A stretch of DNA of 64,000 nt from Octopus sinensis (taxonomy: Eukaryota): NCBI RefSeq assembly GCF_006345805.1, contig NC_043006.1:53940001-54004000 (forward strand), given 5' to 3'. Shown one piece after another: positions 16,333 to 62,966 of this stretch. Below the pieces are notes generated by a model that worked only from the letters and a program-made list of their open reading frames with translations, ran no database searches and was not told the DNA's origin. Position 1 is the first letter of the stretch, and every line of letters starts with the position of its first letter. Made by a program: the position numbers and the translations under genes.

Positions 16333-16386
<54 letters not shown>

Positions 16387-18203: not shown

Positions 18204-18248
<45 letters not shown>

Positions 18249-18388: not shown

Positions 18389-18435
<47 letters not shown>

Positions 18436-18465
18436 TTCGCCACGATAGATCGCTAGCCATTAAAC

Positions 18466-18530
<65 letters not shown>

Positions 18531-18571
18531 GAAGATAGATAGATATAGATAGATAGATATATAAGATAGAT

Positions 18572-18673
<102 letters not shown>

Positions 18674-19302
18674 TCCCACGCTTTTGTGACAGTCGCAATG
18701 CATAAAAAAATATTAACACTAAAAGTTATCAACCTTTGTAGAATACTGCTGCCGCCATCAGCAACCGTCAAATTTCGACAGTAAGAAGCTTCCAGAACAA
18801 TCTCGTGAAATGGAAGTCACAGATAAATTATCGTCTGCTTGTGTGAAAAGTAAAATCTAACGGAAATCAACACAGCTGAACGGAAGGCATATGTTTTTCA
18901 AGTAATGCACATACGCACGTACACATGCACACATGCACACACGCACACACTCAGATACATACATACATACATGCAAACATATAAACACATGTATACACAT
19001 ATATGTGTGTGCGTATATGTTAGTATGTATGTGTGTGTGTTTGTGTGTGTATGAGTGTGTGTGTATGTCTGCGTGCATTTATATACGCACATATATATAT
19101 ATATATATATATATATCTGTATGTATGCATGCATGCATGTATGTATGTATGTATGTATGTATGTATGTATGTATGTATGTATGTATGTATGTATGTATGT
19201 GTAGACGTGTGTAGGTATGCATATATATGTGTATGAGAAGGGCGTGTGTTGAAGTAGAAGAAGAACAGCAACAACAACAGCAATATCAACAGCAACAGCA
19301 GT

Positions 19303-19695
19303 GAAGGTGCAATGGCCCAGTGGTTAGGGCAGCGGACTCGCGGTCGGAGGATTGCGGTTTCGATTCCCAGACCGGGCGTTGTGTGTGTTTATTGAGTGAA
19401 AACACCTAAAGCTCCATGAGGCTCCGGTAGTGGGTGGTGGCGACACCTGTTGTACTATTTTGCTCCAACTTTCTCTCACTCTTTCTTCCTGTTTCTTGTC
19501 CCCGACTTCCTCCGCAACCGCTGAACCTGGATGCGCATTCATCCATCCGTCGATGCTCTCGGTGTCGGGGGTTGACCCGCTTTCTCTTCTGCGGGTCTTA
19601 TGAATAGCAAAGGACCATGTTTCAGACTTCTCCCACTACAGACAATCCTGGGGCGCGATCTTGTGAGCTCTGGGACGAAGACCGCTTCGCTCAAA
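19303..19695 (+). mobile_element. SINE family D, tail T2
   Basis: tRNA-like head tggcccagtggttagggcagcggactcgcggtc...ggtttcgattccc; distinct 3' half ending in (CAAA)/(CAA). Confidence 0.85.
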
Positions 19696-19734
19696 CAAAC
19701 AAACAGCAACAACAATAGTAACAATAATAGCCTC

Positions 19735-20077
19735 CTCTTTTCTAGGCACAAGACCAGAAATTTTGGGGGAGGGGACCAGTCGATTTGATCGACACCAGTA
19801 CGCAACTGGTATTTAATTTATCGACTCCCAAAGAATGAAAGGCAAAGTCGACCTCAGCAGATTTGAACTCAGAACGTAAAGACAGACGAAATACCTATTT
19901 CTTTACTACCCACAGAGAGGACAAACAAGGACAGACAAACGGATTAAGTCGATTGCATCAACCCCAATGCGTAGCTGGTGCTTATTTAATCGACCCCGAA
20001 AGAATGAAAGGCAAAGTCAACCTCGGCGGTGTTTGAACCCACAACGTAGCGGCAGACGAAATACTTATTTCTTTACT
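19735..20077 (-). mobile_element. SINE family B multimer
   Basis: Repeated B-box plus gtcgactttgcctttcat core units joined by aagaaataggtatttcgtc. Confidence 0.85.
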
Positions 20078-20629
20078 GCGGTATTGGTTTGTTTACATCC
20101 CCAAATTTTAACGATTCCTCAAAAGAGCCCAACAGAATAAATACTAGGTTTTTTTTTTTAAATAAGTACTAAGAGTCGACTTGTTCGACTGAACCCTTCA
20201 AAGCACTACCCCAGCATGGCCGCAGTCCAATGACTGAAACACGTCAAAGACAAGAGATAAAAAAATTTTGCCGGAAAATTAGCGTAAGCACAAAATTTTT
20301 TTGTTTTTGCTTTATGCTCTCTGTTTCTCGAAATGGTGAGTTCCGGGAAATTGAGAAAGCTTTTATTTGTAGTTTCTAATACTACAGTATCAGCCATGTA
20401 CCTTTATGTAAATGAGCTACGTCATTCACAATCTTCTTATGTTTTTAGTATTTCTTCACTGCGTTCTTTTGACAGTTTGGGAAGTAGAGGTAAGTGTTCC
20501 CTAATGAATCATCAGAGAAATTAAATTAATCAGAACCTCATTCGAAGCCGTTGAAAATCGCCGTGACTTAATCCTGGTAACTAATTTTATTGTAAGACTA
20601 AATATATTTTTAGTAAACACATGGTTAGG

Positions 20630-20680
<51 letters not shown>

Positions 20681-22186
20681 GTATGTATGTATGTATGTAT
20701 GTATGCATGCATGTATTTAATAGTCTTTAGTAAGTCAATGTTGTCAATAAGTTAATGCAAGGAACATTAAAAACTAATTTACTACTAACAGTATTACTGC
20801 TGTTGCTACTACTACTACTGTTGCTGTTGCTGCTGCTACTACTGCTACTACTACCACTACTACTAACATTACATCTGTTTTATTCACTAATGAATTTAGG
20901 GTTAGGGTTAGGGTTAGGGTATTGAAACGAATTAAAATTGAAGTTGAAAAATTATGGTGAAGGGGGAAAAAAACCAGGTCAAGCTCTGATTCTTGCAAAA
21001 GACATATTTGCTTTTATTCTGGGAGAATCGAATCGACAAAATAACCCCTAACGTCTCTCTTGCCGGAGAGTGAGTCAAGAAAATAGAACAGCAGAGGAAT
21101 AAAACCTGGATGGATTGGTAAAGTATTTAACTAATGCTTTCTATAATTTTCGAAACACTTGACTCATTTCTGGTTTTACCATCAGAAACTTAACTATAAA
21201 ACGCCGCAAAGAAAAATGTATGGACGAATCTTCGTCATTTTGTCAAAGAATCCCCAATTTCCAGTTGAAGTACTCACTCCGTCAAAAGAAATGTCCCTAC
21301 TATAGAGATTAAATGATATCATTGACGAAGCTGCTGAAAACAATCAAGAATGGCACTATTAAGGAACTTACTGAAAACAATCAACAATCAAATATATAAT
21401 GGGTTGTTTTTTTTTAATGTCAAAGAGAGGGAAGAGTTTAAAATTACTGCTTATAGAAGTTTTAACTTGTAGAAACTGTTTCTTGCCTTCAATTCTGATT
21501 GTCAAAGTCAATAGAAACAGAAAGAGTGTTTTTTTTATGGTAGAACTCTTTGATTTTAACTTGTGATGAAGTGTGACCCACATCAACAATATATATTTCT
21601 TGAGAAACTACAATCAATCGGATTGAAATATTTTGTGGCATTCAGGAAGATTTTTATTTTCTTCCTTTCGTAAATTGTTAGTTTTCTATACAATTATATA
21701 TATATACATTTTTTAATGGAACATTTTATGTTCGTGATTCTCGCTTTCTAATACCTAAAATTCTAAATCATATATTTAGTATCATTGTGTGATGAGGTCT
21801 TTACGGTTAAATGACAGGCTCTTTTGAGAGCCTGGAATGTTAATTTATCCGAGTAGAATCATCATTCATAGGATTTATGCCGCTTATAAGAGTTATGATC
21901 TTCATAATCCTTGTGAATTGTGCCATTCACAATCTTATTGGTCATTGTAAATTTGTAAATTTACGCTACTTTCCTTTGGCAGTTTGCAGGGCAGAAGTTA
22001 CCGCGGTCCTACAAAAGCCCCAATCTTCCGAACCAAATCATTTACAGAATAAATCAATGATCCCTGATGATTCTTAAGAACAAAACTAATTAATGCGAAT
22101 CATAATCCAAGCAGCTAAATATTCTTCGGGTTAACCACTAACCAATAAAACTAAAGATATATGTATGGGATATAACTGTATATATA

Positions 22187-22231
<45 letters not shown>

Positions 22232-22928
22232 TGTGTGTGTGTGTGTGTGTGCAATCACCGACGTCTTGGGACACTAAGGATGATCAAACTTGCATTTAGT
22301 ATATTTGCAAACCAACTAAATGAAGGAGCCTCATTCGACCCACTAGCAATAACAAAAAATTTCCTTAAATCATATCTTATCATGCTAGATTAAAGCCAAA
22401 TCAACTCCCTAATTATAACCATAACTCAATAATTATGAACCTCGATATTTGTATTGTCTGATAATTCATTAAGTCATAATTACAGCTAAATGTGATATAT
22501 AATTGCTTAAAAATTCAGTTTTGTTCCAAGACCTCTATCAGGCTAGACCCATATTAAACATAGCCTGTTAGTTAATTTTATTTACTTACCACTAAATAGC
22601 TGTAAACAATATAAGTTAATTACTTAACTTATATATAATTAGGGTTACGAGGAAAAAATGCAAATTTTCGACTTGCTTTTTATTAATTTTCTTTTCATAG
22701 TTATAATTTGCACTAAAATAAATCCGGCATTGAGAAAAACTCTATGGTTTCCTCTCTGCTTCGGTGCCTTAACCACCTGCTTATGTTGTTTAATGGTTAA
22801 TCCGGTTCACTTTAGTGTTTTTAAACGATAATGCTCACATTGAGTATATCCTCACCAAAAAAGAAAATAGGAAGGTTTTTTTATCGTCTGCTGGCAACAG
22901 AAGTGATAATAGGTAAAATAATAATAGC

Positions 22929-23167
22929 GTGAGATATAAACAGTAGCAATACGGCATCGTAACGTATAATTGCCAACCACGTGTGGCGTCCTATACAGGA
23001 CAGTGCTACTGGTGTTTATAGCCCGGACACAGAATGTGTGTCGTTAGCCAGCTGGAAGAGATGTCTTCCTGGGGCTATAAATGCCAGTAGCAATGTTCTG
23101 TATAGGACGCCACACTTGGTTGGCAATTATATATTACGATTCCTTATTGCTACTGTTTACATCTCAC
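22929..23167. repeat. Foldback inverted repeat, ~95 bp arms
   Basis: 22929-23024 is the reverse complement of 23072-23167 (e.g. gtgtggcgtcctatacag / ctgtataggacgccacac). Confidence 0.9.
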
Positions 23168-23212
23168 TCAGAGATTTAACATAGCTTATTTCTCCTATGT
23201 GACCGTGTGTGT

Positions 23213-23403
23213 ACCGTTGGCGATTGTTTTTTCCTCCGTCTTCCCTTCTTTGGATCTTTCCTTTTCCTATGTTTCTGATGAAGAGCTCCGCTCGAAACGT
23301 TAGACCCTCCTTCTTTCCTTCTTTCCTGAGCGTCCAATAATACTATACTTGTCCACGTCCTCGCGTTGTTGTATTTTCTCTTTGTGTTTTCATGTTTGGA
23401 TTA
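23213..23403 (+). mobile_element. ~190 bp hammerhead-bearing unit, subfamily F1 (PLE pseudo-LTR or retrozyme-like)
   Basis: Close inverted copy at 43270-43460; ends in (TA)n. Confidence 0.8.
23271..23305 (+). ncRNA. Minimal type I hammerhead ribozyme
   Basis: gttt-CTGATGA-a-gagc/tcc/gctc-GAAA-c-GTT-agac; stems I and II pair; stem III is a loopless ACGT palindrome. Confidence 0.75.
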
Positions 23404-23452
23404 ACTATATATATATTATATATATATATATATATACATATGTATGTATTTA

Positions 23453-23525
<73 letters not shown>

Positions 23526-24739
23526 CCAAAGTGTACGTACGCTGCTATATGTTTTATATATAAAAAATACAAAACGGGACAAGAACGCAAAACATCAAGA
23601 CAGACGATACAAATAAAACAAGGATGGGTCATTCGGAGTTTTCTATTCTCAGTCGAGTTCCATATGGTTGGGAAGCAAACTTCTTACCACACAGCCACGC
23701 CTGTACCTAATGTATATATGTATATTTTATCTGTCTACTTACCTGTCTATTTATCATCTATCCATATATATATATAATATATATTAGAAGAAATAAGGTA
23801 CTCAGAAATCTTCAGAAATCTCAGAAATCTCAGAAATCACATACATACATACATACATACATACAGCCATACATACATACACACACATACACACACACAT
23901 ACGCACGCACATACACATATATATTAAATGTATGTTGTTAATTCGTCAAATTGTGTTCAAATTCACGTTTTTCTCACCAACGTGTTGTTGTTGTCGTCGT
24001 CGTTGTCGTTGATGATGATGATGATGATTGTTGCAAATATTTGATTTATCTCAAGAACATATAACAAATAAAAACAACGGCTTGAGTTTTTCTAATCAGA
24101 TTTATCGTTGAATGATTATTGGCCCAGTTTACATCAAAGGAAAAGATATCCTTCTACAAAAAAAAAAAAGAAAAAGAAATTCACTGGGGGTGTTTTCTCA
24201 TACACTTATCCTGGTTCATGTGTAAAGAGATTTGAATTCTGTCTTACGAGTAAATGAGATCATTGAGAGACGTGAAATTCTTATATATTGCTCGATGTAG
24301 ACCCACCTACATCATCATTAAAGACATCAAGATATTTCATGACGTCACCGAATTTCATTTGCTCACTGTTTGTAAATTGACATGACACCGCTTCTTTCCA
24401 GCTTCACCTACAACATTGTTCTAGGCCACGTACCCTCGCAATCGAGCAGAAATAGTAACCAAATCTCCCTGAAATACAACTCTATCAGCTAAAATAAAGA
24501 GGTACACATTGGATGACGCATTTCTAGATATGCTATATATGATAAAAATCATTTTTTTTAAAGTGGGAAGGTTCACAGCTGATACAGCTTAAATTGTAGA
24601 TTTGCTGGATTATGGCTAACCTGAGGCTAAGCAACAACAACAACAACAACAACAACAATAAAACAATAAATTTCATGGAAAGTATTTACACCTCGCTGAA
24701 CAGTGTTACAAAACATTAAATACCGTCAGTGAAATATTA

Positions 24740-24793
24740 CGTGGTGATATCAGAAAGTTCCAGGACTAATTATCTATTATATAAAATCTGTTT

Positions 24794-24828
<35 letters not shown>

Positions 24829-25870
24829 CTTCTAGGATCTCGGGCATCCTCCATCCGATGCGCTCAAATTTGATATGTAGATAACGACGGTATCAGGGCG
24901 TGTATAAGTCTTGAAAAATTACAAAAATCGATTCCAGGTGAGAATGCGATCGATAAAGCCGTGGGAACGTGCATTTGTACGCGCAAGTACATAAAAAAAG
25001 TCTATCTTTATTTCTTCTTTTACTGGTGTCTCAAATTTAGGTTACATCAATGTTTCTCAAAGAGGATGCCTATGGGACGGTCGGACGAGTTGTTTTGAGA
25101 AAATTTGGTTTAAATGTTTGACAACTCAGCACCGTCCATTGGATGTGGGGCCTTTTGCTCGTGCTTAATAAAAACTAACTTATTTACTTAGGTTTTAACA
25201 TCATTTACTTTGAAATAGTCACCTTACACAGCAATACACCAATTACAGCATTCCTGTCACTTTTGGAATCCGGCCTGGAAGTCGTTTTCCGTAAGCGAGT
25301 CGAGGACCTTCTGCGATTCGCTCCGGATCTCGACAACGGTATTAAAACGGCGGCCTTTGAACTGCATTTTCGTCTTGGGGGAAAAGATGGAAGTCCGCAG
25401 GTGTTAAATATGGCGAATAGGGCGGGTGCAGAAGCGATACCATGTCGCTTTTGGCGAGAAATTCACGAGTGAAGAGTGGTCGGTGACAGAGTGCATTGTC
25501 GTGACGAACCCACTTCTTCGCGCTCCACAGATCCGATCGCTTTTGCCGAATGCCCTCCCTCAAACGCTTCAAAACGCCGTACTAGAACTCTCGATTGACG
25601 GTCTGAACCTGAGGAACAAAGTCTCGATGCACAATACCACATTTCTTGGGTGAATCCCGTGACAGGTCTTCCGGATAGCTCATCGTCTTTCAGAGACGTT
25701 CTTTCGCTTTTGAAGCGCCCATGTCACATGAAACATTGCATACGACCCATTGTTTCGTCTCCTTAAACTTTCCGAAGCATGCTCAATGTTTCTGTACCAG
25801 ACTTCCCAAGTTTAACGCAAAATTTCGCGTTAGTTCTTTGTTCCTGTCCATGACAAAATAGCAGACTACA
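24740..25870 (-). mobile_element. Decayed mariner with nested Helitron
   Basis: TA-cgtggtgatatcagaaagttccaggact end; transposase remnants HDNA...HPPYSPYLTPADFHLFP and GDYF; second TIR not identified. Confidence 0.8.
24773..25161 (+). mobile_element. Non-autonomous Helitron inserted at A|T
   Basis: 5' TC-tattatataaaa plus (TG)n; subterminal hairpin ccgtccattggatgtgg; 3' CTCG (CTRR variant); no TSD. Confidence 0.7.
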
Positions 25871-28727: not shown

Positions 28728-30583
<1,856 letters not shown>

Positions 30584-37094: not shown

Positions 37095-38960
37095 ATATGT
37101 TTCGACCAGGCCATGTCTAACTTAATAGCATCACCTGATAGGATTACCTAAATCCTTTTTATGTCAAGTTTTGTGTTATAGTCCTTTCAAGTAGAGAGTT
37201 CTTGTTGTGTGAGCTGTATCCAGGTATAGGTGGCTTATCTGGTATTCCTTGAAGAAATTTGACCAAATTCCATTTAAAAGTGATGGGATCCTTTTCCTCT
37301 TTGATCCGTTTTGGGTCAATGTTAAATAGGGCAGGGCCTGTTGAGGAAAAGAAATTGTGTCGCAGGCCGGCAACAGCACTACAGGCACTGATTGGGAGTC
37401 CGCGCACCTCTACCGGCCGATCAAACTCCCGCCGAGACTTTTCTATAGTCTCACGCAGGTACTGCCGTCAAGAGGAATTCTCGAGCAACTTGACACGGTC
37501 ATCCGCGTAGGAGCTAGGAGAATCCTACATCTCCCGGAGACCACTTCCGCTTCCTTTTTATACAGCAGCCGGTGTGATGGCGGATTAAGTATTCACCAGA
37601 TGGTGAGACTAATCCCGAAGTGTGTCATCCGCCGTAATATGTTATGCTCCTAAATTGAGCAGAGGACGTATGGCCTGTGGTCCTAGCCTTGGATGAACCT
37701 TGAAACTAATGTTCAGGTCGTTTGGGCAATGCTGGCGGGATATTCTCCACATCGTGCAAATTATGTACCGCTCGCGACGGCGCTGGAGAGAGTAGAGATT
37801 CAAGGCTTTAAGGCGGTCCCAGTAATCAAGATCAGTTATGCCCTTAATTCGTTTAGTGAATGATCACCGGGGTGATTCAATTTTAGAGATGTTTTGTTTT
37901 GTATGGGGAAACCAAAGGGGTAGCAGTATTCGAGGAGGAGAAAAGTGGAATGATGACACCTTGCTCTCTGGACCGGGAGGTTCTTAAGATCCAGGAGCTT
38001 ATCCTACGAGCTATATCGAACTTTTGTTGATGTGGGCACTCCAACTGAGATTGTTATAAACAATTAATCCTAGGTCTCTGAGATTATTAGATGCCGTGAG
38101 CGGTTCCCCTGAAGGAAGAGAATATGGCTGTTTTAGTATAGTCTTTCTTCCAAAATGCATCTGCCCAAATTTTCCCTCGGTTAGTTGCATTTTGGTTTTG
38201 TCTGCCCATTGATTCACCGCATATAGATCAGACTGGAGTTGAGTTAGGTCTTCTTCATTGATGATTTTCTGGAGCTTAGTGTCATCAGCAAATATTTTCA
38301 CTTTGCTGTGTTTTACAGCGCTGGAAAGGTCGTTTCTATAGATTATAAAGAGGAGCAGACCCAAGACAGTCCTCTGTGACTTTTGCAGGGCTTGAGTGGA
38401 TTTCATCGACCACAACATGTTGTGTTCTATACGCCAGGAAATACTCAATCCAGTGTAGAAGTTTCCCACGGATTCCAACATTTGACAAATTTGAGTGTAA
38501 GCTATAATGGTCAACGCTGTCGAAAGCTTTACTGAAGTCAAGATATATGACATCAGAGTTCGAACCTGTTCCCAAGGTTTTACGTATATCCTCAATGTGG
38601 TGTAAGAGCTGTGTTAGACAGTCCCTGCCACAGCGAAAGCGATCCTGATTTCCATTTAGGAGTTTGTGGATCTCCAGAAAGGCAGCTATCATTGATCTTA
38701 CCACTCTTTCAAACATTTTAATGATATGGGAGGTGAGTGAGTTTGGACGATAGTTGACTGCGAGGGATCTGATTCCCAGTTTGAAAATCGGGATGACAGA
38801 TTAGGATAGGAGTTGTTTCGGTATATAACCTGAGTCTAAAGAATTTCTCCAGAGGTTGGTGTCTACATTCCTTCAGGAGGCTAGCAGGGAATCAATCTAT
38901 CAGAGCCCACAGTAGAATAGTATTTGACCTCATTTATTGCCGATATGATATCTGAGGCAT
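37095..38960 (-). mobile_element. CR1-like LINE fragment (RT)
   Basis: DVIYLDFSKAFDSVDH, KIFADDTKL, LDYWDRLKALNLYSLQRRRERY; frameshifts and internal deletions. Confidence 0.9.
37370..37630 (+). pseudogene. R2-superfamily-like RT thumb fragment inserted in the CR1
   Basis: LPPRLFYSL...LEQLDTVIRVGARRILHLPETTSASFLYSSRCDGGLSI. Confidence 0.7.
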
Positions 38961-38964: not shown

Positions 38965-39006
<42 letters not shown>

Positions 39007-39126
39007 AGAATTCACAGAAAACAAAAGACGAAGACTGGTGGTGTAGAAAATAAACAGATGTATTACATATATATATATTGATAAAAATGGTAAGACAACA
39101 AAAGAAAGAAAGAGATGCAGTTGTAA

Positions 39127-42823: not shown

Positions 42824-43269
42824 AGTACACATATAGCGTCCTTGTCGTCAGAAGATGACAACTGATTAAATCCGTAACGAGGCTCAATTAGTGATTACAG
42901 CCTGATTAAAAATTTTAAAAAATAAATTAAAATAAAAAAAACTAAAAACAAAACATTGCTGTGGGAAAGTTGAGTTGTGGGATCATTGAGCTAGCTGCGT
43001 ATTCAAACAGGTGTGTGCATGTGTGTGCGTGTGTGTGCGTGTGTATGAGTGTGTGTGTGTGTAAATCTGTGTTTGTGTATGCGCGCCGGCAGTTATATTG
43101 CTTCTCAGAAGAAACGTTTATACGTGCATATGCAACAACATTTGCACGCATACACACACAGCAACACACACTGACACTCTCGCTAATTTTCTCTCTCTTT
43201 CACACTCACACTTTCTCCCTCTCTCCCTCTGTCTCCCTCCTTTTCCACCTCCCTATATGTATATAAAGT

Positions 43270-43460
43270 TAATCCAAATATGAAAACACCAAGAGAAAAC
43301 ACAACAACGCGAGGACGTGGAATAAATATAGTATTATTAGACGCTCAGGAAGGAAGGGAAGAAGGAGGGTTTTACGTTTCGAGCGGAGCTCTTCGTCAGA
43401 AACATAGGAAAAGGGAAGATCCAGAGAAGGGAAGACGGAAGAAAAAAAATCGCCAACGAT
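43270..43460 (-). mobile_element. Hammerhead unit, subfamily F1
   Basis: Inverted copy of 23213-23403 in a (TA)n context. Confidence 0.8.
43369..43403 (-). ncRNA. Minimal type I hammerhead ribozyme
   Basis: gttt-CTGACGA-a-gagc/tcc/gctc-GAAA-c-GTA-aaac. Confidence 0.75.
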
Positions 43461-43462
43461 AC

Positions 43463-43522
<60 letters not shown>

Positions 43523-44387: not shown

Positions 44388-44577
44388 GGGAGAGTTTACG
44401 AAAAAGACAAAAGACGAAGACAGATGGTGTACAAACCAAACAGATGTATTAGTATAACGCTCAGGAATAGAAAAAGTATTTTACGTTTCGAGCCTACGCT
44501 CTTCTACAGAAAGGGACACAGAAAAAACAAGGAGAGAAAAAAAATGTGTGTAGTGGCTAACGATCTATCATGGCGTC
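44388..44577 (-). mobile_element. Hammerhead unit, subfamily F2 (core at 44479-44512)
   Basis: ttt-CTGTAGA-a-gagc/gtag/gctc-GAAA-c-GTA-aaa; flanked by (TA)n; homologous to 51647-51861; fragments at 39003-39064 and 18437-18465. Confidence 0.75.
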
Positions 44578-44592
44578 ATATATATATATATT

Positions 44593-44631
<39 letters not shown>

Positions 44632-45214
44632 AACTGTATTGACCAGACTGACGGATGTTGTTATACACTGCTAGTCACAATACACTTATTCATATAGTTG
44701 AACTTTTCAAATGATGTCATTCATCTAACTAAAGAGTGCAGCCAAAATTTCCTCTGAACGGAATGCCAGTCGATCACAGGTGAGTAGACTTGCGCAACGT
44801 AAAATGAATTGTTTTCTTCAAGAAAACAAGGCATCGCCGCGATCTCATGAACGTGAGCGCAACACCTAAACCATTAAGCTAGGCGCTATCACACACACAC
44901 ACATGAGAATAAATGTATATACATGTATATATATATACGTGTATATATATATATATATGAATATATGTGTGTGTGCATGTGTGTATGTATGTATGTATGT
45001 ATGTATGTATGTATGTATGTATGTATGTATGTATACGTATGTATGCCGTGCACGGCAGCTGGCGTGTGCTGGTGGCCAAAGGACTCACCGTGCGAAACCG
45101 CTGTTTTGGATGTGTGATTCCTGATTATCTCATAAATTTACATAAATAAAAACTGCACATTTCTTACAAAATGCCGTATAAAATACTTTCATATGTTTGT
45201 ACCACAAAATGAAT

Positions 45215-45265
<51 letters not shown>

Positions 45266-45275
45266 TCCAAATGTA

Positions 45276-45306
<31 letters not shown>

Positions 45307-45824
45307 TGTGTGTGTATGTGTGTGTAGTCTTTTATTGGAGCAGAAATTGATAGTTTGTCTCACGACTCGAGTTTCACGGCTCTCCGATGGTCGTCCCGTG
45401 TAATTTGAACTTTAAGTTGCGTGACAATTAACCAGTATTTAAAGCTCCAATGTGTATTCCCGTTCGCATTTTTGTATTCGTAACCCTTGCTATGCGTGTT
45501 TCACCAAGTAAACGTGGAAAATAAACGAAACATGAGTGATTGTTTCTAGGACGTTTCATTACGGCCTCTTACGTACGTGTCATGAACAAAAGGTAATTAT
45601 TAGTTACAGAATGTTACTTATATAATCACAACATACTGTGAAATCATCGGAAATGTGTAACTGTTATACATAACATTATTGAATAGAAAAGAAGTTGATA
45701 GAATCAACTGTCGTGGATCTCCACGGTGCTTTGCTCGATCAGCAATTTTTCAATTCAATATTATGCAAGAAAGCAAGGTGACGAATTGGAGAATCATTAA
45801 TACGCAAGCCAAAATACTTAGTGT

Positions 45825-46070
45825 GGAGGCGCATGGCTTAGTGGTTAGGGTGTCAGCATCATGATCGTAAGATTGTGGTTTCGATTCCTGGACCGGGTGA
45901 CGCGTTGTGTTCTTGAGCAAAACACTTCATTTCACGTTGCTCCAGTCCACTCAGCTGGCAAAAATGAGTAACGCTGCGATGGACTGGCGTCCTGCTGGGG
46001 AACACATACGCCAGAGAAACCAGGAAACCGGGCCCATGAGCCTGGCTAGGCTTTAAAAAAAAGGGCGCAA
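45825..46070 (+). mobile_element. SINE head C, tail T5, nested in a SINE B
   Basis: ggaggcgcatggcttagtggttaggg...ggtttcgattcc; SINE B head at ~45775-45822 and its core resumes at 46081. Confidence 0.8.
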
Positions 46071-46561
46071 AAGCCCGTCCTTAGTTCAAATTCCGCTGTA
46101 GTCGCCTTTGCGTATCATCCTTTCAGGGTTGATGAAATAAGTACTGGTTGAACACTGGGATCGATGTAATCGACTTATATCCATCTCTCGAAATTTCTGG
46201 CCTTGAGCTAAAATTTGAAATCAATATTATAATGCATGAAAGTTACATGCCCCTGGCAATTTGATAACTGTTCTAAGATAGTGTAACTAAAATACGGCTC
46301 TAGGAAGGATCAAGATCAAACTAAATTCAAGAGATATTGGTGAAAAGAAGCAAGAATTAACTGATGAAATAATATTCCCTCTTCTGTCTTTTTTGCTTTA
46401 TTTTGATCTTTATGCTTTTTTTAATGGTTGTGTATGTTGATTCTTGACTATAGATAGATAGCTAGATACATAGACATAGATACATACATACATACATACA
46501 TACATACAAACAGACAGACAAACAAACAGTCAGACAGACAGACAGACAAACAGACAGACAT

Positions 46562-46624
<63 letters not shown>

Positions 46625-47097
46625 TACGACGGGTTTCTTTCAGTTTCCTTCTACCAAATCCAATCACAAGTCTTTGGTCCGCCCGAGGCTATAGTAGAAG
46701 ACCCTTGCCCGAGGTGTCACGCCTACGCCTATTTGATCTGGGTTTTTATATTCTAGTTTCAAATCCATCTGAAGCCAACTTTGCTTTCATCCTTCCATGT
46801 CAATAACATAAAGTTCCTGACAAAGGCTGGTGGCAGATTAATAGACAGAACTTTATCTGCAAAATTCTAGCTCTTTGCCACTATTAAAAACAATTATTCA
46901 CTCTGTTTTTCTATTTTCGATTTAAAAAAAAAAATATCTATGCTTATGTAGATTCCATTATCATTACACATTTTTTTTTTATTTCACTCTGACGTCAACA
47001 ACAAGGATCGCAAATGTTGCGGCGAAAGATTTAACACTAAATAATAAGTATTTAAGTAAAGTTTATGTTTTTCCGAATGACAAATGTATGTCTTTGG

Positions 47098-47419
47098 TGA
47101 AGGCGCGTGGCTTAGCGGTTAGGGTACTCGGCTCACGATCGTAAGGTCGTGAGCTCAATTCGTGGCGACGTGTTGTGTCCTTCAGTAAAACACTTTATTT
47201 CATGTTGCTCCAGTCCACTCAGCTGACAAAAATGAGTGGTACTTGTATTTCAAATGGGCAGCCTTGTCATACGCTATGTCACACTGAATCTCATTGAGGA
47301 CTGGTTTAAGAGTACACGTATCTGTGGAGTACTCAGCCACTTGCGCGTGAATTTCTTGACTAGGTTGTTCTGTTGATCGAATCAACTGCAAACGTCCTCG
47401 TCGTTACCGACGGAGTGCC
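47098..47419 (+). mobile_element. SINE head C, tail T1
   Basis: Homology to 42066-42385 and 63376-63657. Confidence 0.85.
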
Positions 47420-47550
47420 AGTAAGTTAGTATATGTCTTTTACGCTGCAATCTCCTTTTTGCCTAAATTCACTGCTCACTGAACTCCTTCAACTAATATC
47501 AGATACTTCACTATGTTTTATGTTGCTTCGAAGACATCTTCCTTACTATG

Positions 47551-47631
<81 letters not shown>

Positions 47632-48087
47632 GTCTCGGAGTTCAGAATATCCTAGAGGACTTCAATGCTCAGAACTACTTCATCACTTTTGGTTTCTCCC
47701 TTTCCCTTCACTAAGTCTACATGAATACGATATCAGGTGAAACATGAAGTGTGCGCGCGCGTGTATGCACAGACGGAGGAAGCAGGTTATAGAGGGGATC
47801 GACACCTTTGAAAGAGCACATATTCTGCATGAAGAATTTAAGCGTGCTGCTCGAAAGCGCACTGCTAGTGTAGCGAATGGGGAAAGTTTGGTTAGCAATG
47901 TTTGCAGTCGTGTATGCTTGTCATGAGCAGGGATCATTAGCCACCAACGGAGCTCCAAATGCAAAATCTAAATTAATCCCAGAGCGCACAATATTCCTAA
48001 AGGTCAGAATGGCCTTCGTCGGTCACGAGTAGACGGCCATCATACACACAACACACACACACACACCACACACCACACACCACACAC

Positions 48088-48126
<39 letters not shown>

Positions 48127-48162
48127 AAAACAAACACACACAGACACACCACGCACACACAC

Positions 48163-48206
<44 letters not shown>

Positions 48207-48436
48207 GCTTGTGTGTCTTTGTGTTTGCCTCCAATCCCACCCGCACCATTACTTGACAACCGATGTTGGTGTGTTTACTTCCCCATAATGTAGCGGTTCG
48301 GCAAGCGGCCGACAAAATAAGTACTAGGCTTACGAAGAATAAGTCCGGGGGTCAATTTTTTTCGACTAAAACCTCTTTAAGGTGGTGCTCCAGCATGGAC
48401 GTAGTCAAATGACTATATATATACGCATGCATATAG

Positions 48437-48482
<46 letters not shown>

Positions 48483-49041
48483 ATATATGTATATATGTGT
48501 GTGTGTGTGTGTGTGCGTGTAGAGAGAGAGAGTATCTATGTGTGTGTACCGCATACATGTGTGTTTTCTTAGCACTGCATTTAGCAATTGCACGTGTAAT
48601 TGTACAACACATTTTATCAATTGTGTGTGATGCTTTTGTTTGCATGTATAAAATATCTCTGGGATGACTTGAAAAAAATAATAAACGCTAGGTAACAAAA
48701 TGACCTGTCGCTCACCTTGCTCAATCTCTTCGTAGATTAAGACCTTTGACAAATGTCGCAACGTCTCCCTCACCCACACAGCTACCGCAACTATGGACTC
48801 GCCCACCAACTCACCGATAATACAAGTCCACGACCCACATAGTTAGGCCGACCCTCAGGACGCCACATTCTCTTTCTCTCTTTCCCTCTGTCTCTCTCTC
48901 TCTCTCTGTCTCTCTCTCTCTCCCTCTCCCTCTCCCTCTCTTTCCCTCTCTGTCTGTCTCTGTCTCTCTGTCTGTCTCTGTCTCTCTGTCTCTCTCTCTG
49001 TCTCTCTCTCTGTCTCTCTCTCTCTATCACCCTGTCTGTCC

Positions 49042-49136
<95 letters not shown>

Positions 49137-49428
49137 CTATGTACAACATAACCCATCCTTAATACCTACGTTTAAAGAGATACCATTTACCTGTCTTTCT
49201 GTAACAACCTTATGAATTTACCCACCTGACCAGGCGCCTGTCTTATCTAGTAACTAATTTCTTACTCGTCCCTATCAACCTCGAACCAGTCCCTCTATTC
49301 ACACAATCAGCTCTACGGACACCTCCTACCCTACCTAGCTACAAACACCTTCTTCAAAACAACCTTTGTTATCTATGTTTAATTGCACTTACACACACCT
49401 GTCTTTTTACTTATCTACCTGTCTATCC

Positions 49429-49460
<32 letters not shown>

Positions 49461-49461
49461 G

Positions 49462-49508
<47 letters not shown>

Positions 49509-49530
49509 GTCTGTCTATCTATTATATATA

Positions 49531-49591
<61 letters not shown>

Positions 49592-49942
49592 GTTTCTCTA
49601 TCTAGCCGCCTGTTCGCGTTTATGTGTACTCACAAACACGCACACACGCTCACACACACGCACGCACACACACACACGTACACACACACACATGAATGAG
49701 AGAGATAGTTTATAATTTTTATTATTGTTATTGTTCGCGGAATTTGAAGCTTCCTGACTGTAATGTGTATGTGTGTGTGTGTGTGTGTGTGTTTTATGAA
49801 AAGAATGTCATTCTACTTAATTTCGCCCCAGGGTGGGCTGTTCGCTGCTGTCAACTATATACAACGTATTTTGCCTTGTATATCAGATATTTGCACTACA
49901 TAAAGTATACTATTAATATAGTTTACAACTTTTACATTACGG

Positions 49943-49973
<31 letters not shown>

Positions 49974-49988
49974 TGTGTGAGTGTGTTG

Positions 49989-50019
<31 letters not shown>

Positions 50020-50367
50020 TGTGTGTGTTGTGTTGCGTGCGTGTGTGTCGGCGTGAGTGTGTATTTTCCAAGCTGGCAAAATTGTAAAGACGTCATTTCG
50101 CCTAGCGGCATTTCGGCCATTTTTGCGTTTTAAGTTCAAATTCCGCCGAGGTTGTCTTTGCCTTTCAACTTTTCGGGGTCAACATAATAATTATGTATTG
50201 AACATTAGGGTCGATGTAAAAAAATTTGCTTCTCCCTTTAAAATTGGGAGGAGGAGGGACTTGTGCAAAAAGTAGTAGTAGTAGTAGTAGTAGTTGTTGT
50301 TGTTGTTGTTGTTGTGCGAGATATTGTTAGAAGTCCAATCTTTGACTCGTAATATGTATGAATATAT

Positions 50368-50672
50368 CACGTGATCACGTGACCGACCAGGCTATCAGAT
50401 GTTGTTACACATCGCTGGTCACAATGCGCTTCACATTGTTTTAGCCTTCGAATGACGCCACCCCGCTGGCTAAGCGAGCAGGCCAACAGAAGAAAGAGTG
50501 GGAGAAAGAGTGGTGAAAGAGTACAGCAGGGATCACCGCCCCCCTGCCGGAGCCTCGTGGAGCTTTTAGGAGTTTTCGCTCAATAAACACACACAACGCC
50601 CGGTCTGGGAATCGAAACCGCGATCCTACGACCGCGAGTCCGCTGCTCTAACCACTGGGCCATTGCGCCTCC
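50368..50672 (-). mobile_element. SINE family D, tail T3, full length with TSD
   Basis: 14-bp TSD atgtatgaatatat at 50354-50367 and 50673-50686; intact tRNA-like head. Confidence 0.92.
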
Positions 50673-50720
50673 ATGTATGAATATATAAATGTCTGAATGT
50701 ACAGGTGTGTATATATGTAG

Positions 50721-50768
<48 letters not shown>

Positions 50769-51646
50769 GTGTGTGTGCGCGCGTGTGTGTGTGTTGGAGT
50801 ATATTATACATGTTCAGTCATGTACAATATAATCCAATGAGTACGAGGCCCGTCGATGTGAAATTCTCAACTTTGAAACCTTCACAAGATCCCTCATAAA
50901 GCAATACAACAGCATTAATTTGAGGCGTGGAGAGAAACCAACAAGCGTGATTTGAAAACTGTATGCCACTTGGGCTCCTCCGCCTCAAAAATCTCTCCAC
51001 TTTTCAGCACACTTGATGCGTCCCTCCACTCTTTCTGTACACTAATTATCATGAGCAATCCTTCATCCCTAGAATACCCGCGCACAGGAATCTCCTCACT
51101 GCTTATCTCTTTCTTGCAGATTTGAACCTCCAACAGTTTTGACAGAGCGTTAACAGCATCAGCCTCCCCCGTTTCAGAGGGTCTGAAAGAATCGTGGGTT
51201 TTCCCCCTTCATCCAAACACAATAGGTAGGGAAAAAAGGACAATGGAAACCCCAAGGTGAGCCATTGCTGAAGTTCGTTTAAGGACATAACTCGCTCTCA
51301 GTATAGATCTCTTTCTCTCTCTCTTTATATATATACACATACATACATACATGCATACATACATACATACATACATACATACATACATACATACATACAT
51401 ACATACATACATACATACATACATACATACATACATGCGAGGATGTGCTTTAAGGGTGTCACGAAAGGCCTGGTTAGCGGCCCAACCTTCCGAGTTCTTT
51501 TACAGAGCTTAGAAAAACTGAAGGACAACTGCAATAAATGTGTGAATCTGAGAGGGGAATATGTTGAATAGTATCGTAATTAATTGATCGTTCTGTATTT
51601 TCTATTACCCAAAGCCAGAAATATTTCGGCATTTGTGTGTGTGCCC

Positions 51647-51861
51647 GACGCCATGATAGATCGTTAGCTCCTACATGCATTTTTTTCTCTCTTTGTTTTT
51701 CTCCTTGTTTTTTTTTTTCTGCGTATCTTTCTGTCGAAGAGCGTCGGCTCGAAACGTAAAAGACTTGTTCTATTTCTATTCCTGAACGCCATACCAAAAC
51801 ATTTGTTTGTTTGTACTCCACCTGCCATTGTCTTTTGTTTATTTTCGTAAACCTTCCCGTT
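51647..51861 (+). mobile_element. Hammerhead unit, subfamily F2 (core at 51726-51763)
   Basis: tcttt-CTGTCGA-a-gagc/gtcg/gctc-GAAA-c-GTA-aaaga; ends at (TA)n. Confidence 0.75.
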
Positions 51862-53934: not shown

Positions 53935-56105
53935 TTTTGTCTACTCCTCATGCATAGTCTGACCAACTCTTGTACCTACACCTTAGATCCATCGTGGCGT
54001 CTGATATGGCTTTTTAAACTAGACAATCTATTTAAATGACACCCACATAGATTGCATATCCGATTTGGACCATGAAGAGTTGCTGTTAAGTTCTGATCTT
54101 TATGGATCTTATAATGTTTTCTGAGGTCTCTGTCAGATTTGCAGACCTTATGGCATATATGGCATTGAAAGGTGTGCACAGATATATAGGCAAAATAGTT
54201 GGTGGAGGTTCGTTTTTCATGGGTCTGCAAATGAGATTTGAGCCCAACAAAAGAAAGGCATGGTCTGTCACAAACTGTGCACACAAAAATATCACTGAGT
54301 TTACCTTCTCGATCACAATATTCTTCTTTAAAATCTCTCTTGAGTCTTGCACGTGTTAACCTGGCATCTTCAAACGCTTTCACTCATCTCCACACTTTTG
54401 TTCGCCATGCAGCTCGATCCGAAGTAAATGTTTCTATGGCCTTTGGATCCATTCCAGTTGACTTCATGGTAGTCCTTATACCGTCCTTGAACTTCTTTTG
54501 AACCTTATTCAAAAGTGCAGAAAAATGTTCTACCCAGCGCTTATGAATAGAAGCGGTGTCAGTCAAAAACAAATGACCATTTGTTGTTCTCACTGGAGAT
54601 GTTGAATATTTTAGGCAATATACCTCTTTTACATAAGAGTACAAACCCTTAGCATCATTTTTATCAGCTTCTTCTTGCGCCCCCTTTGCTATGCCAGTCC
54701 ACCATTCCTGTTTAATTTTCCTTAGAGCAGTCTGCACTTTCCCTTTCAGCTTTCTGTGAGCTTCGTTTGAGTTGAAGCTCAAGCACTGAGAAAGAAGAGT
54801 ATTTCCTGTTTTTCTCAAAGTAGATCATGGCCTTATCCGATTTAAATTCCACTGAAGAACTTGCAGCCTGAAATACTTTTGCTTTGAAATCTTCCCATAG
54901 GTTGTTTGGATCAAGATTGATACTTTCTATAGCATCGTGGAATCTTTTCAAGTTGCTTGGTCATTTAAAGTTTGCAGAATTTAACTTTTTGTGTACCTTA
55001 GGACCAAACTGTCCACTTTTAGGCATTGTCGAAAAATTCATTTTTGCACGGACTGGATGATGGTCAGTCCAGCTCTCTGCTCCTCTCATGGCCCGAACAC
55101 TAGAAACATCCTTCATATAACGCTTTCTGATCAAAATATAATCTATGAGATGCCAGTCCTTAGATCTTAATTGCATCCAGGTAGTTATATATTACTTTTC
55201 TGCTTAAACAGAGTGTTGGTAACAACCGTATTATTCTCAATACAAAACGTCAAAAGAGCTACTCCATTTTTATTACATTTTCCAATCCCATGTCGGCCTA
55301 AAACAGGCTATGAAATGTAATCACTTCCAAATCTTGCATTGAAATTTCCCAATATGACCAGCTTGTCAGAAATTGGTACTTTCTTCAGTAATTGTACTAC
55401 TTCGTCATAAACCTGTCCTACAGTTTCATCAGAATAAGACATTGTTGATGCATAAATACTGACAATGTTAAGAAACCTACCTTTTGTCAGTTTATTACGG
55501 CATGACATAATCCGCTCAGATATACCACTTGGAAGTTCTGCAATGGAGAATACTAATGAATTCTTGAGAACAAACCCAACACCAGATTCTCTACGCGAAC
55601 CATCAGGTAGGCCCGTACAGAAGATAGTATGTCCATAAGTAGGTTCATTTATTTGCCCCTCACCAGAGACGAGTTTCAGAGAGTGCAACATCAAGGGAAT
55701 ATTTTAAAGCTTATTTTAAAGCTTACATGCAGTAAGTGCAGTACGCCTTTTTGGCCTCTTGTTGAAATTATCATCTAGAAGTGTGCACACATCCCAAGAG
55801 CCAGAATTCAGAGGATGCTTATTTTTCTTCTTCTTGAAGATTGTTTGACCACAGTAGCAGGATGGTGACCGGGCCCAGCCTATGGCACACTGGGACACCT
55901 ACCGAGTCAGACCTGTTCTCCTGACGTTCCCAAGCCTTTTGTTGGATGGCCGTTGACTACTCATGAGTTCCTCCGCCCTTTGACGGGTCTTAATTTTCGT
56001 CCTGCAGGGTGCCCAACAATCACCCTCTCAGCAAGCAAGCTTGGTGGGATTGCCAATTTAGTGACCGATGACCCGACCATGCAACAGGTAGTACTGGATA
56101 ACATG
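53935..56105 (-). mobile_element. RTE (BovB-like) LINE with APE endonuclease, RT deleted, three C-terminal C2H2 fingers
   Basis: GSWDVCTLLD, ESGVGF, VILGNFNARFG, WHLIDYIL, WTDHHPV, RWVEHFSALLN joined directly to QKKFKD; zinc fingers in ORF 53976-54383; stops and frameshifts. Confidence 0.9.
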
Positions 56106-58560: not shown

Positions 58561-58986
58561 TTTAAATGTTAATTGAACGAGTACATAATTCGTTCGACGC
58601 CAGATCTATTCTCGTGAGCTTGTGTGGTGCGTTGCGTGCGCGTGTGTATGATGAGAACTTCGCTATTTCTAGTTTGTTTTTTTAGCTATTGATTTTTTTA
58701 ACAAACTTTCTTTTTTCTTATTAGTTAAATCCTTATAAATATTTCTTCTCTCATATAAGAATGATTTGTTTTCCACTAATTATTTGTTCTGTTTCTTAAA
58801 CCTCTGTCCCTCCACACATACACACACACACTTTGTACTGACGGTTGTTGTTCTTGATTAAATTCTTCTCTATCTTCAGATATTTTTGATTGGAAAACTT
58901 ATGTTGTCTTGAATAATTTTTTTAATGTTGTTGTTGCTGCTGTTGTTGCTGCTGTTGCTGCTGTTGTTGTTGTTGTTGTTGTTGTT

Positions 58987-59185
58987 GTTAAGCAACAAGA
59001 CGAGTAAGGGTGATTAGGTGGTGGTCTAGGGCTTAGGGGCGGGAGACCACAGACCTCGGAAAAAAAAACTTTGGTCGTCTTGTTGTAGTCGAGGGCTCTC
59101 CGTTGACGCCCGACACCACTGGGAGAGGTGGCCCTCGAAGTCGCTGGAAATGGAGATCTCCAGGTCCAAATTCTTGAACGGCTGC

Positions 59186-59229
<44 letters not shown>

Positions 59230-59468
59230 CTGCTGTGCTGCTGTTGCTGCTGTTGTGTTGTTGTTGTTGTTGTTAAGCAACAAGACGAGTAAGGGTGATT
59301 AGGTGGTGGTCTAGGGCTTAGGGGCGGGAGACCACAGACCTCGGAAAAAAAAACTTTGGTCGTCTTGTTGTAGTCGAGGGCTCTCCGTTGACGCCCGACA
59401 CCACTGGGAGAGGTGGCCCTCGAAGTCGCTGGAAATGGAGATCTCCAGGTCCAAATTCTTGAACGGCT
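58987..59468. repeat. Tandem duplication of a ~197 bp GC-rich unit within (GTT)/(GCT) repeats
   Basis: 58987-59183 and 59272-59468 appear identical; period 285. Confidence 0.9.
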
Positions 59469-59470
59469 GC

Positions 59471-59526
<56 letters not shown>

Positions 59527-59601
59527 TTGCTGCTGTTGCTGCTCTTCTTCTTCTTCTTCTTCTTCTTCTTCTCTTCTTCTTTCTTCTTCTTCTTCTTCTT
59601 C

Positions 59602-61029: not shown

Positions 61030-61814
61030 TTGTCATTTACTTTTAATCTGCATGTTTGATGCAATCACTTGCCGGGGCACACCCAGCGCCCTAGGGCAAG
61101 TGAAGGTTAAGAGTTGTTGAAATATAGCTGAAAGCTTGGGGAGGGGAAGTAGAGAAATATCTCCATGTAATACAAACACAAACATTTACATTGATAGGGG
61201 TTTTCTAAGGATGTGGGCAGTACTTGTTAGCACAATCTTTTGGATTTCCTTGAGACATGGTTCTCCAGGGATATTGTCTAGGTGTTTCTGACATCCCTTT
61301 TTTTATCATACCTAGGGCACCTACAATAACAGGAACAGTTTTTGTTTTAAGATTCCACATCTTTTGTATTTCGATTTCCAGGTCCTTATATTTACTAAGT
61401 TTGTCAAATTCGTTTACAGATACATTTTTATCAGTGGGGACGCTTACCTCTATTAGTCTGCAGGTATTTTCTTCCCTGTCTTTAACAATTATGTCTGGTC
61501 GATTAGCCTTGATCGTTCTGTCAGTGTTGACTGGAAAATCCCAGAGGATGGTGACATCCTTACCTTCAACAACTGGCTGAGGATGGTGTTCATACCAGTT
61601 AGCAGGAGTGTCGAATTTGTAGTATTTACATATCTTCCAATGTATATACTGTCCTACCCTATCGTGGCGATTTTTGTATTCGTTTGGTGTCAGCACAGGA
61701 CATCCCGAAACGAGATGGTCTATCGTTTCGTCAAATGTGTCACAGAATCTGCATTTAGGGTCAGTACCGTTTCGGAGAACGTTAGCCTGGTAATTTCTGG
61801 TAAACAAGCTTTGA

Positions 61815-61816
<2 letters not shown>
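61030..61816 (-). mobile_element. Dong/R4 LINE 3' end (CCHC finger and PD..D/E restriction-like endonuclease)
   Basis: ORF 61205-61807: CRFC...HLVSGC, RHD, NRPDIIV, KLSKYKDL, VIVGALG; (TAA)n on both sides. Confidence 0.92.
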
Positions 61817-61861
<45 letters not shown>

Positions 61862-61895
61862 GTTATTGTTATTGTTATTGTTATTGTTATTGTTA

Positions 61896-61969
<74 letters not shown>

Positions 61970-61970
61970 T

Positions 61971-62353
61971 ATTTGTTTGACTTTTGCTTTATGTCTGTAC
62001 AAGTTGGCTCCAAGTCTCACTCAGAGACCTCAAGAGACAACAGGTTGGAAGTTCTGTGCCATATATTTGGGGGGGGGGTTTGGTGTTGTACTAGTGAATG
62101 TCTAATACATAAAAATAAAATTTAAAAAAAAAATTAATAATAAATAAATAAATAAAAAATAAAACAAAATAAAATAAATAAATAAATAAATTTAAAAAAA
62201 GTTTGTTTTAAACTTGGGATTACATAGAGAGTATTTTGCGTAGGATATGAGCAGTTTCCATGAGCACTATCTTTTGAATTTCTGCCATTTTTGGGGTTTC
62301 CTGGTATCTGAGTTAGGTAGCAATTAGTCCCTTTCGCTATCATTCCCAGGGCA

Positions 62354-62384
<31 letters not shown>

Positions 62385-62464
62385 TATTATTATATTATTA
62401 TTATTATTATTGTTATTGTTATTGTTATGTTATTGTTATTATTATTATTATTATTATATTATTA

Positions 62465-62520
<56 letters not shown>

Positions 62521-62907
62521 TATTTGTTTGACTTTTGCTTTATGTCTGTACAAGTTGGCTCCAAGTCTCACTCAGAGACCTCAAGAGACAACAGGTTGGA
62601 AGTTCTGTGCCATATATTTGGGGGGGGGGTTTGGTGTTGTACTAGTGAATGTCTAATACATAAAAATAAAATTTTAAAAAAAAAATTAATAAATAAATAA
62701 ATAAATAAAAAATAAAACAAAATAAAATAAATAAATAAATAAATTTAAAAAAAGTTTGTTTTAAACCTTGGGATTACATAGAGAGTATTTTGCGTAGGAT
62801 ATGAGCAGTTTCCATGAGCACTATCTTTTGAATTTCTGCCATTTTTGGGGTTTCCTGGTATCTGAGTTAGGTAGCAATTAGTCCCTTTCGCTATCATTCC
62901 CAGGGCA

Positions 62908-62908
<1 letters not shown>
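61971..62908 (-). repeat. Tandem duplicate of a short Dong/R4 3' end
   Basis: 61971-62354 and 62522-62908 are near-identical, begin at (G)ALGMIAKG and are separated by (TAA)n. Confidence 0.85.

Positions 62909-62966
<58 letters not shown>

What the first reader, a model, noticed from the sequence alone, without database searches (positions are those of the whole stretch)
44479..51763. Subfamily with a non-canonical CUGUNGA hammerhead core
Seen: both F2 copies have T at core position 6 (CTGTAGA at 44503-44509 minus, CTGTCGA at 51731-51737) while stem I, stem II, GAAA and GUA are retained. Established: A6 is nearly invariant in hammerheads. Inference: the change in two independent insertions suggests the master element propagated with it, implying either a tolerated core variant or cleavage supplied in trans by a canonical partner.
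Basis: partly seen in the sequence, partly recalled or inferred. Interest (0 to 1): 0.72.

Follow-up and report, generated by a model that had tools for sequence, protein, structure and literature searches.

The report
Family-wide U6 hammerhead in Penelope-type repeat
A very abundant short repeat in an animal genome carries a hammerhead self-cutting-RNA motif in which one normally fixed core letter is changed in most copies while the rest of the core is kept, so it is likely a slow but still working natural variant, though cutting is untested.

Summary
Observation confirmed: both copies read CUG-U-N-GA inside a minimal type I hammerhead of the kind carried by Penelope-like elements, in a 190-210 bp repeat flanked by TA/CA microsatellites. 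Contigs of four public runs (9,000-25,000 laid per run) indicate U6 is the family state: no change at position 6 is among the 40 of 82 difference rows shown, so A6 is probably under 3.4% of depth. Apart from CpG decay, the core varies only at N7 (all four letters) and H17 (A or U, G under 1% in three runs), the two positions hammerhead chemistry leaves free. That favours a constrained, probably slow ribozyme over decay. Rescue in trans by F1 is disfavoured: the stem I arms mismatch, and F2's own enzyme half is conserved. Copies span the cut site, so uncut RNA was the template. Cleavage is untested. A natural A6C variant that cleaves slowly is in print; I found no natural A6U, but a key paper (Lünse 2017) was unreadable. 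This scan noted the same family before on another piece of this genome (e1-9559914). New variant of a known kind.

The parts
44388..44577 (-). F2 repeat, copy A (about 190 bp), between (TA)n/(CA)n microsatellites
   Evidence: 8,995-25,394 contigs per run lay on it
44474..44517 (-). Minimal type I hammerhead motif of copy A: C3 at 44509, U6 at 44506, A7 at 44505, extra A at 44502, stem II 44501-44490, G12 at 44489, palindromic helix III 44486-44483, A17 at 44482 (predicted cut between 44482 and 44481); stem I arms 44513-44510 and 44481-44478
51647..51858 (+). F2 repeat, copy B (about 212 bp), between (TG)n and (TA)n
51723..51764 (+). Minimal type I hammerhead motif of copy B: C3 at 51731, U6 at 51734, C7 at 51735, A17 at 51758 (predicted cut between 51758 and 51759)
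38997..39065 (-). 3' 70 bases of an F2 copy without the hammerhead, between (TA)n runs (likely 5'-truncated insertion)
18438..18465 (+). 28-base piece like the F2 5' end, alone between (TA)n runs
   Evidence: (E 8e-4)
23210..23416 (+). F1 repeat with canonical A6 core (motif 23275-23301), related family used for comparison
43257..43463 (-). F1 repeat with canonical A6 core (motif 43373-43399), 91% like the other F1 copy

Best explanation
F2 is a very abundant, protein-free repeat, likely copied by a Penelope-like retrotransposon enzyme, whose minimal hammerhead has U in place of A at core position 6 in most copies and likely still folds and cuts, but slowly. Shown: the motif, its family-wide spread, and where it varies. 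Inferred: (1) the source elements were under selection for the hammerhead core, since new source lineages arose with each letter at N7 and with A or U at H17 but not with changes in the other core or proximal stem positions; (2) like other minimal hammerheads it would cut only as a dimer through the ACGU palindrome, possibly helped by the Penelope protein; (3) U6 would lower the rate or raise the metal need rather than abolish chemistry, by analogy with A6C; (4) slow cutting costs little or helps, because copies span the cut site and so came from uncut (or re-joined) RNA.
For: Family state: contigs of 4 runs laid on copy A (21,247; 25,394; 13,505; 8,995). N7 is A at most 48-53%, U 20-30%, C 12-15%, G 9-14%. 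No row for position 6 among the 40 of 82 shown; every row shown has a share of at least 3.4% in some run. H17 is U in 15-24%; G17 is under 1% in X1, X4 and X8, where all T>C places are accounted for. No core adenine has a change at 1% or more in X4 and X8. Non-CpG polymorphisms (3% or more in 3 of 4 runs): 0 of 29 core and proximal stem positions, 2 of 7 free positions (p=0.033), 14 of 91 flank positions (p=0.021). F1 and F2 covary at pair 2.4-1.4 (G-C versus C-G). Architecture equals the min-HHR consensus of Penelope-like elements (PMC4209133). A6C hammerheads cleave at 0.04-0.33 per min in 10 mM Mg2+ and better in Mn2+ (PMC7151607). An Anolis Penelope-like hammerhead cuts only with the element's protein, and uncut RNA is the main template (PMC11167929).
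Against: No cleavage data. The position-6 bound is indirect: 42 rows were hidden, 2 of them A>T places at 1% or more in X4 and X8, and the second lay meant to settle it gave no difference table. Shares are depth-weighted contig shares laid on a U6 reference, not copy counts, and the four runs are of related genomes, not independent lineages. The p-values are modest and rest on shown rows only. Mutations in the CUGA turn gave low activity in a pairwise scan of another hammerhead (PMC9901934). Minimum-energy folds do not give the hammerhead (z 0.03 to 1.18; stem II formed in 3 of 4 F2 folds). Copies are monomers with no piled-up end at the cut site (tables 5 and 6). No autonomous Penelope ORF was found among 19 ORFs scanned, so the Penelope link rests on motif architecture and microsatellite targets.
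Confidence: 0.5

Rival explanations
1. The motif no longer cuts. The fold or sequence is kept because the Penelope reverse transcriptase/endonuclease recognises it, and U6 switched cutting off so that the full-length RNA survives as template.
For: Catalytic mutants of the Anolis element's hammerhead inserted normally in vitro (PMC11167929). F2 copies span the cut site and no ends pile up there. CUGA-turn mutants have low activity (PMC9901934). A6 revertants did not take over although N7 changed at least three times.
Against: Variation follows the catalytic rules (N7 free; H17 A or U, not G), which protein binding alone need not impose. A6C variants still cleave.
Confidence: 0.25
2. Neutral hitch-hiking: a dead hammerhead with U6 was amplified from a few source copies, and the rest of the core looks conserved only because few positions had time to change.
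For: Non-CpG changes per position are mostly under 1-3%, so the family is fairly young; p-values are 0.02-0.03 on shown rows only.
Against: Four letters at N7, each 9% or more, beside a fixed position 6 and 8; 14 of 91 flank positions are polymorphic against 0 of 29 constrained ones; the transition A17G is rarer than the transversion A17U.
Confidence: 0.15
3. F2 RNA is cut in trans by a canonical A6 hammerhead (F1 or an autonomous element) in a mixed dimer.
For: F1 and F2 share the ACGU palindrome that joins dimers and the first three stem I pairs. Copy A's private change lets the F1 arm pair over five positions. Other canonical families elsewhere in the genome were not seen.
Against: With the majority F2 3' arm the F1 5' arm has a G-G mismatch at 2.4-1.4, leaving three A-U pairs at the core (copy B has the majority arm). 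A pure substrate would not need C3, U4, G5, G8, A9, G12-A14 or stem II, yet these are the conserved positions. Dispersed monomers rarely meet on one transcript (inference).
Confidence: 0.1

Closest known systems
Minimal type I hammerheads (min-HHR) of metazoan Penelope-like elements (Cervera and de la Pena 2014, PMC4209133; read: main text parts 1-2 of 4, supplement file 2 part 2 of 3)
   Same: Extra base between positions 9 and 10.1, G10.1-C11.1, 4-bp stem I, palindromic two-pair helix III without loop, U-rich upstream flank, dispersed monomers in large numbers.
   Different: All 44 alignment rows seen have A6 (their descriptor required it); the core variant they report is U3-A8. F2 has U6. 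No link to a full Penelope ORF is shown here.
Bcep176 A6C hammerhead (Perreault et al. 2011, PMC3088659, section 8 and passages; Naghdi-type follow-up PMC7151607, passages)
   Same: Natural substitution at core position 6 with the rest of the core kept.
   Different: A6C in one phage locus, tested active (slow in Mg2+, faster in Mn2+); F2 has A6U, in a minimal dimer-type fold, in a very abundant eukaryotic repeat, untested.
Poseidon element PAc of Anolis carolinensis (PMC11167929; read: passages and section 3 part 2)
   Same: Hammerhead inside a Penelope repeat, AT-rich targets, uncut RNA as template, 30-40 bp end pieces.
   Different: PAc is autonomous; no position-6 change is mentioned in what I read; F2 encodes no protein.
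Metazoan non-LTR retrozymes (PMC7229834, search listing only; bioRxiv 10.64898/2026.07.22.740005, part 1 of 5 read)
   Same: Non-coding, short, type I hammerhead, thought to be moved by Penelope enzymes.
   Different: Retrozymes are defined by tandem units each with a hammerhead; F2 copies here are monomers, and tandem joints appear only in single contigs.
Dimer-cleaving hammerhead variants of Penelope-like elements (Lunse, Weinberg, Breaker, RNA Biol 14:1499; not held; known from a review passage, and recall)
   Same: Diminished stem III, dimer cleavage.
   Different: Could not check whether it lists position-6 variants.

Membership tests
Hammerhead ribozyme (catalytic class) | Core C3 U4 G5 A6 N7 G8 A9 and G12 A13 A14 | tested here: not met
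   10 of the 11 fixed core letters present (with A15.1 and U16.1); position 6 is U.
Hammerhead ribozyme (catalytic class) | NUH cleavage triplet with A15.1-U16.1 pair | tested here: met
   GUA in both copies; GUU in 15-24% of laid depth; GUG under 1% in 3 of 4 runs.
Hammerhead ribozyme (catalytic class) | Three helices around the core | tested here: inconclusive
   Stem II 4 bp; stem I 4 bp in the family and copy B, 3 bp in copy A; F1/F2 covariation at one stem I pair; helix III possible only in a dimer; energy folds do not give the junction.
Hammerhead ribozyme (catalytic class) | Site-specific self-cleavage after H17 | not testable with these tools
   Only contigs were available; they cannot show RNA ends.
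Rfam hammerhead families | Match to a curated covariance model | tested here: not met
   No hammerhead family among the 150 of 179 rows shown at E up to 1, for F2 or for the canonical F1 copies.
min-HHR of Penelope-like elements | Extra base after A9, G10.1-C11.1, palindromic 15.2-16.2, short stem I | tested here: met
Penelope-like element (non-autonomous derivative) | Sequence shared with the pLTR of an element encoding RT and GIY-YIG endonuclease | not testable with these tools
   No genome held; none of 19 window ORFs scanned hit a GIY-YIG family.
Penelope-like element (non-autonomous derivative) | Insertion bias for (TA)n/(CA)n microsatellites | tested here: met
   All four F2 pieces and the F1 copies abut microsatellites; described for Naiad, Chlamys and Neptune elements (PMC8557442). 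Not exclusive to them, and the window is rich in such runs.
Non-LTR retrozyme | Tandem units, each with a hammerhead | tested here: not met
   Both copies are monomers; go-back joints only in single contigs.

The most novel reading that the evidence does not exclude
U6 is a selected rate limiter: a hammerhead whose CUGA turn is deliberately detuned so that it cuts only when bound by the Penelope protein or a second copy, letting uncut RNA be copied tens of thousands of times; the first natural A6U ribozyme, and a ready-made natural mutational scan of a hammerhead core.
Probability: 0.25. Interest if true: 0.72.

Novelty: new variant of a known kind. Interest (0 to 1): 0.5.

Why it matters
What the hammerheads of Penelope-like elements do is an open question: they are nearly universal in these elements, yet weak in vitro and dispensable for insertion in the one reconstituted system. 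A very abundant family that fixed a normally crippling core change while keeping every other catalytic constraint gives a direct test of whether cutting, slow cutting or only the fold is needed. It also shows that descriptor searches requiring CUGANGA miss whole high-copy families.

Tried and rejected
No genome is held, so no per-copy count. A second lay on a 48-base core stretch, meant to list position 6 directly, returned no differences because the stretch was too short; it laid 18 and 54 contigs from two runs guessed to be RNA, which is no proof of transcription and says nothing on strand or cleavage. Exact-pattern scans found 0 matches in metagenome contigs, viral contigs and prokaryote genomes. 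Translated frames of the element, used to fish out further copies, found no homologue and 2 unrelated repetitive proteins. Rfam gave microsatellite-driven miRNA noise and no hammerhead in the rows shown. Energy folding did not support or refute the fold. A strand-permuted reading, suggested by other notes on this genome, was considered: the downstream CUGAGCG lacks N7-G8-A9 and its U varies to C in 3-16%, so I kept the type I reading. A Pol III SINE reading was dropped because of long T runs in the first 60 bases (sequence, inference). A kink-turn closing the element fits copy A but only 3 of 5 pairs in copy B; left as a lead. Literature searches that found no natural A6U hammerhead: 'hammerhead'+'A6U' (2 unrelated papers by listing), 'CUGUNGA', spelled-out cores (4 unrelated by listing), octopus or cephalopod with hammerhead, core-variant terms, supplements of PMC4209133 (file 1 not searchable) and PMC3088659 (0 hits, figures may not be text).
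Full report
Observation. Each is followed by an extra A, a four-pair stem II closed by G10.1-C11.1, GAAA, the palindrome ACGT and an A at position 17. The pattern matches twice in the window and never in 100 shuffles. The F2 motifs sit in the middle of a 190-210 bp element (44388-44577 minus, 51647-51858 plus; 77% alike), with a separate 3' piece at 38997-39065 and a 5' piece at 18438-18465, all beside TA or CA runs. The window is repeat-rich animal DNA with a U2 match and LINE remnants.

What it is. The anatomy is that of the minimal type I hammerheads of Penelope-like elements: extra base after A9, short stem I, helix III reduced to a palindrome that can pair only between two copies (PMC4209133, main text parts 1-2 of 4; supplement part 2). 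All 44 alignment rows I saw there have A6, but their descriptor demanded it. Rfam has no hammerhead hit in the 150 of 179 rows shown, not even for F1. No Penelope ORF turned up among 19 of the 117 listed ORFs that I chose to scan, so the Penelope link is inferred from the motif and from the microsatellite targets (PMC8557442, passages).

Is U6 the family state? No genome is held, so I laid contigs of 4 of the 24 listed public runs (four organism labels, three studies) on copy A at 80% likeness: 21,247, 25,394, 13,505 and 8,995 contigs. The table shows 40 of 82 difference rows. Position 7 carries all four letters (A at most 48-53%, U 20-30%, C 12-15%, G 9-14%). Position 6, next to it, has no row. 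Every row shown reaches 3.4% in at least one run, which suggests ranking by share, so A6 is probably under 3.4%; ranking by summed depth or contig number would give a similar or lower bound. The per-run tallies of change types exclude G6 at 1% in three runs but leave 2 hidden A>T places in X4 and X8, so A6 at 1-3% is not excluded. F1 contigs did not contaminate the lay at 1%, since F1's loop changes are absent. A second lay on the 48-base core gave no difference table. Shares are depth-weighted and laid on a U6 reference; they are not copy counts.

Is the core constrained? Leaving out CpG sites and three changes private to copy A, and counting changes of 3% or more in three of four runs, 0 of 29 core and proximal stem positions are polymorphic, against 2 of 7 positions free by hammerhead rules (N7, H17; p=0.033) and 14 of 91 flank positions (p=0.021). 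H17 is U in 15-24% while G, the transition, is under 1% in X1, X4 and X8, as the NUH rule wants. U7 cannot be plain CpG decay of copies, because the matching G8A change is not among the rows shown. F1 and F2 swap the stem I pair 2.4-1.4. Against this: the test uses shown rows only, the p-values are modest, the runs are not independent lineages, and energy folds do not produce the junction (z 0.03-1.18), which is expected for a dimer-type motif but gives no support.

Mechanism. The best reading is a constrained but slow ribozyme. Position 6 matters: CUGA-turn mutants had low activity in a pairwise scan (PMC9901934, passages). But a natural A6C hammerhead cleaves (PMC3088659, section 8), at 0.04 per min in 10 mM Mg2+ and 0.3 in 1 mM Mn2+, and an engineered A6C reaches 0.33 in 10 mM Mg2+ (PMC7151607, passages and table). 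A6U itself I found untested. In the Anolis element the hammerhead cuts only with the element's protein, and uncut RNA is the main template (PMC11167929). F2 copies extend about 95 bases on each side of the predicted cut and show no pile-up of ends or tandem joints there, so they too came from uncut or re-joined RNA. Slow cutting would then cost little. The main rival is that the fold is kept for protein recognition and no longer cuts. Trans rescue by F1 is the weakest: in a mixed dimer the F1 5' arm meets a G-G mismatch on the majority F2 3' arm (copy A's private change happens to pair better), and a mere substrate would not keep the enzyme half that F2 keeps. A canonical partner elsewhere in the genome is not excluded.

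Novelty. Position-6 variation is known (A6C); family-wide core variants in Penelope hammerheads are known (U3-A8). I found no natural A6U in ten searches of the held library or in the supplements searched, but Lunse et al. (RNA Biol 14:1499), which surveys such variants on a large scale, was not held, and one supplement file of PMC4209133 could not be searched; either may bear on the claim. Notes on permuted and kink-turn hammerheads in this genome (e1-8665826, e1-8807136) prompted me to check a permuted reading, which I rejected, and a kink-turn, which stays a lead.

Verdict. Observation confirmed; propagation of U6 supported; trans rescue disfavoured; cleavage untested. New variant of a known kind, interest 0.5.

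Noticed in passing
window 44577-44567 and 44463-44456 (minus): The 5' end of F2 copy A and a stretch 20 bases past the cut site could form a kink-turn-like motif (five-pair stem, three-base bulge, tandem G-A pairs, U-U) enclosing the hammerhead; copy B keeps only 3 of the 5 stem pairs. Motif definition recalled, not from a call.
   Followed up: partly
window 44485-44484: C15.2>U and G16.2>A occur at nearly equal shares (9.1/9.1, 5.1/5.4, 5.5/5.4% in X1, X4, X8; 8.7/14.5% in X3), above the 2-4% at the G12 CpG; may be a linked CG>UA swap that keeps the dimer palindrome, or plain CpG decay. Linkage not testable from the table.
   Followed up: partly
window 44515-44514: Two polymorphic positions fall exactly in a predicted two-base bulge of stem I, after which two more pairs can form (assignment made after seeing the data).
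   Followed up: partly
window 18438-18465 (+): A 28-base piece like the F2 5' end stands alone between TA runs; its size recalls the 30-40 bp tail between the two reverse-transcription start sites of Penelope elements.
   Followed up: no
window 17229-17377 (+): A third F1 copy that begins inside the hammerhead, just before stem II, directly after a TA run; its triplet is GUC.
   Followed up: no
window 12717-12903 (-): U2 snRNA match, 49.2 bits against a gathering score of 46; likely a pseudogene, abutting another repeat at 12902.
   Followed up: no
window 29384-30004, 38011-38800, 53976-55703, 61205-61897 (all -): Broken LINE-type remnants: RVT_1, C2H2 zinc fingers, zf-RVT.
   Followed up: partly
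window 58926-59558 and 61814-62965: Near-perfect tandem duplications of about 290 and 550 bases (94% and 98%); could be recent or assembly artefacts.
   Followed up: no
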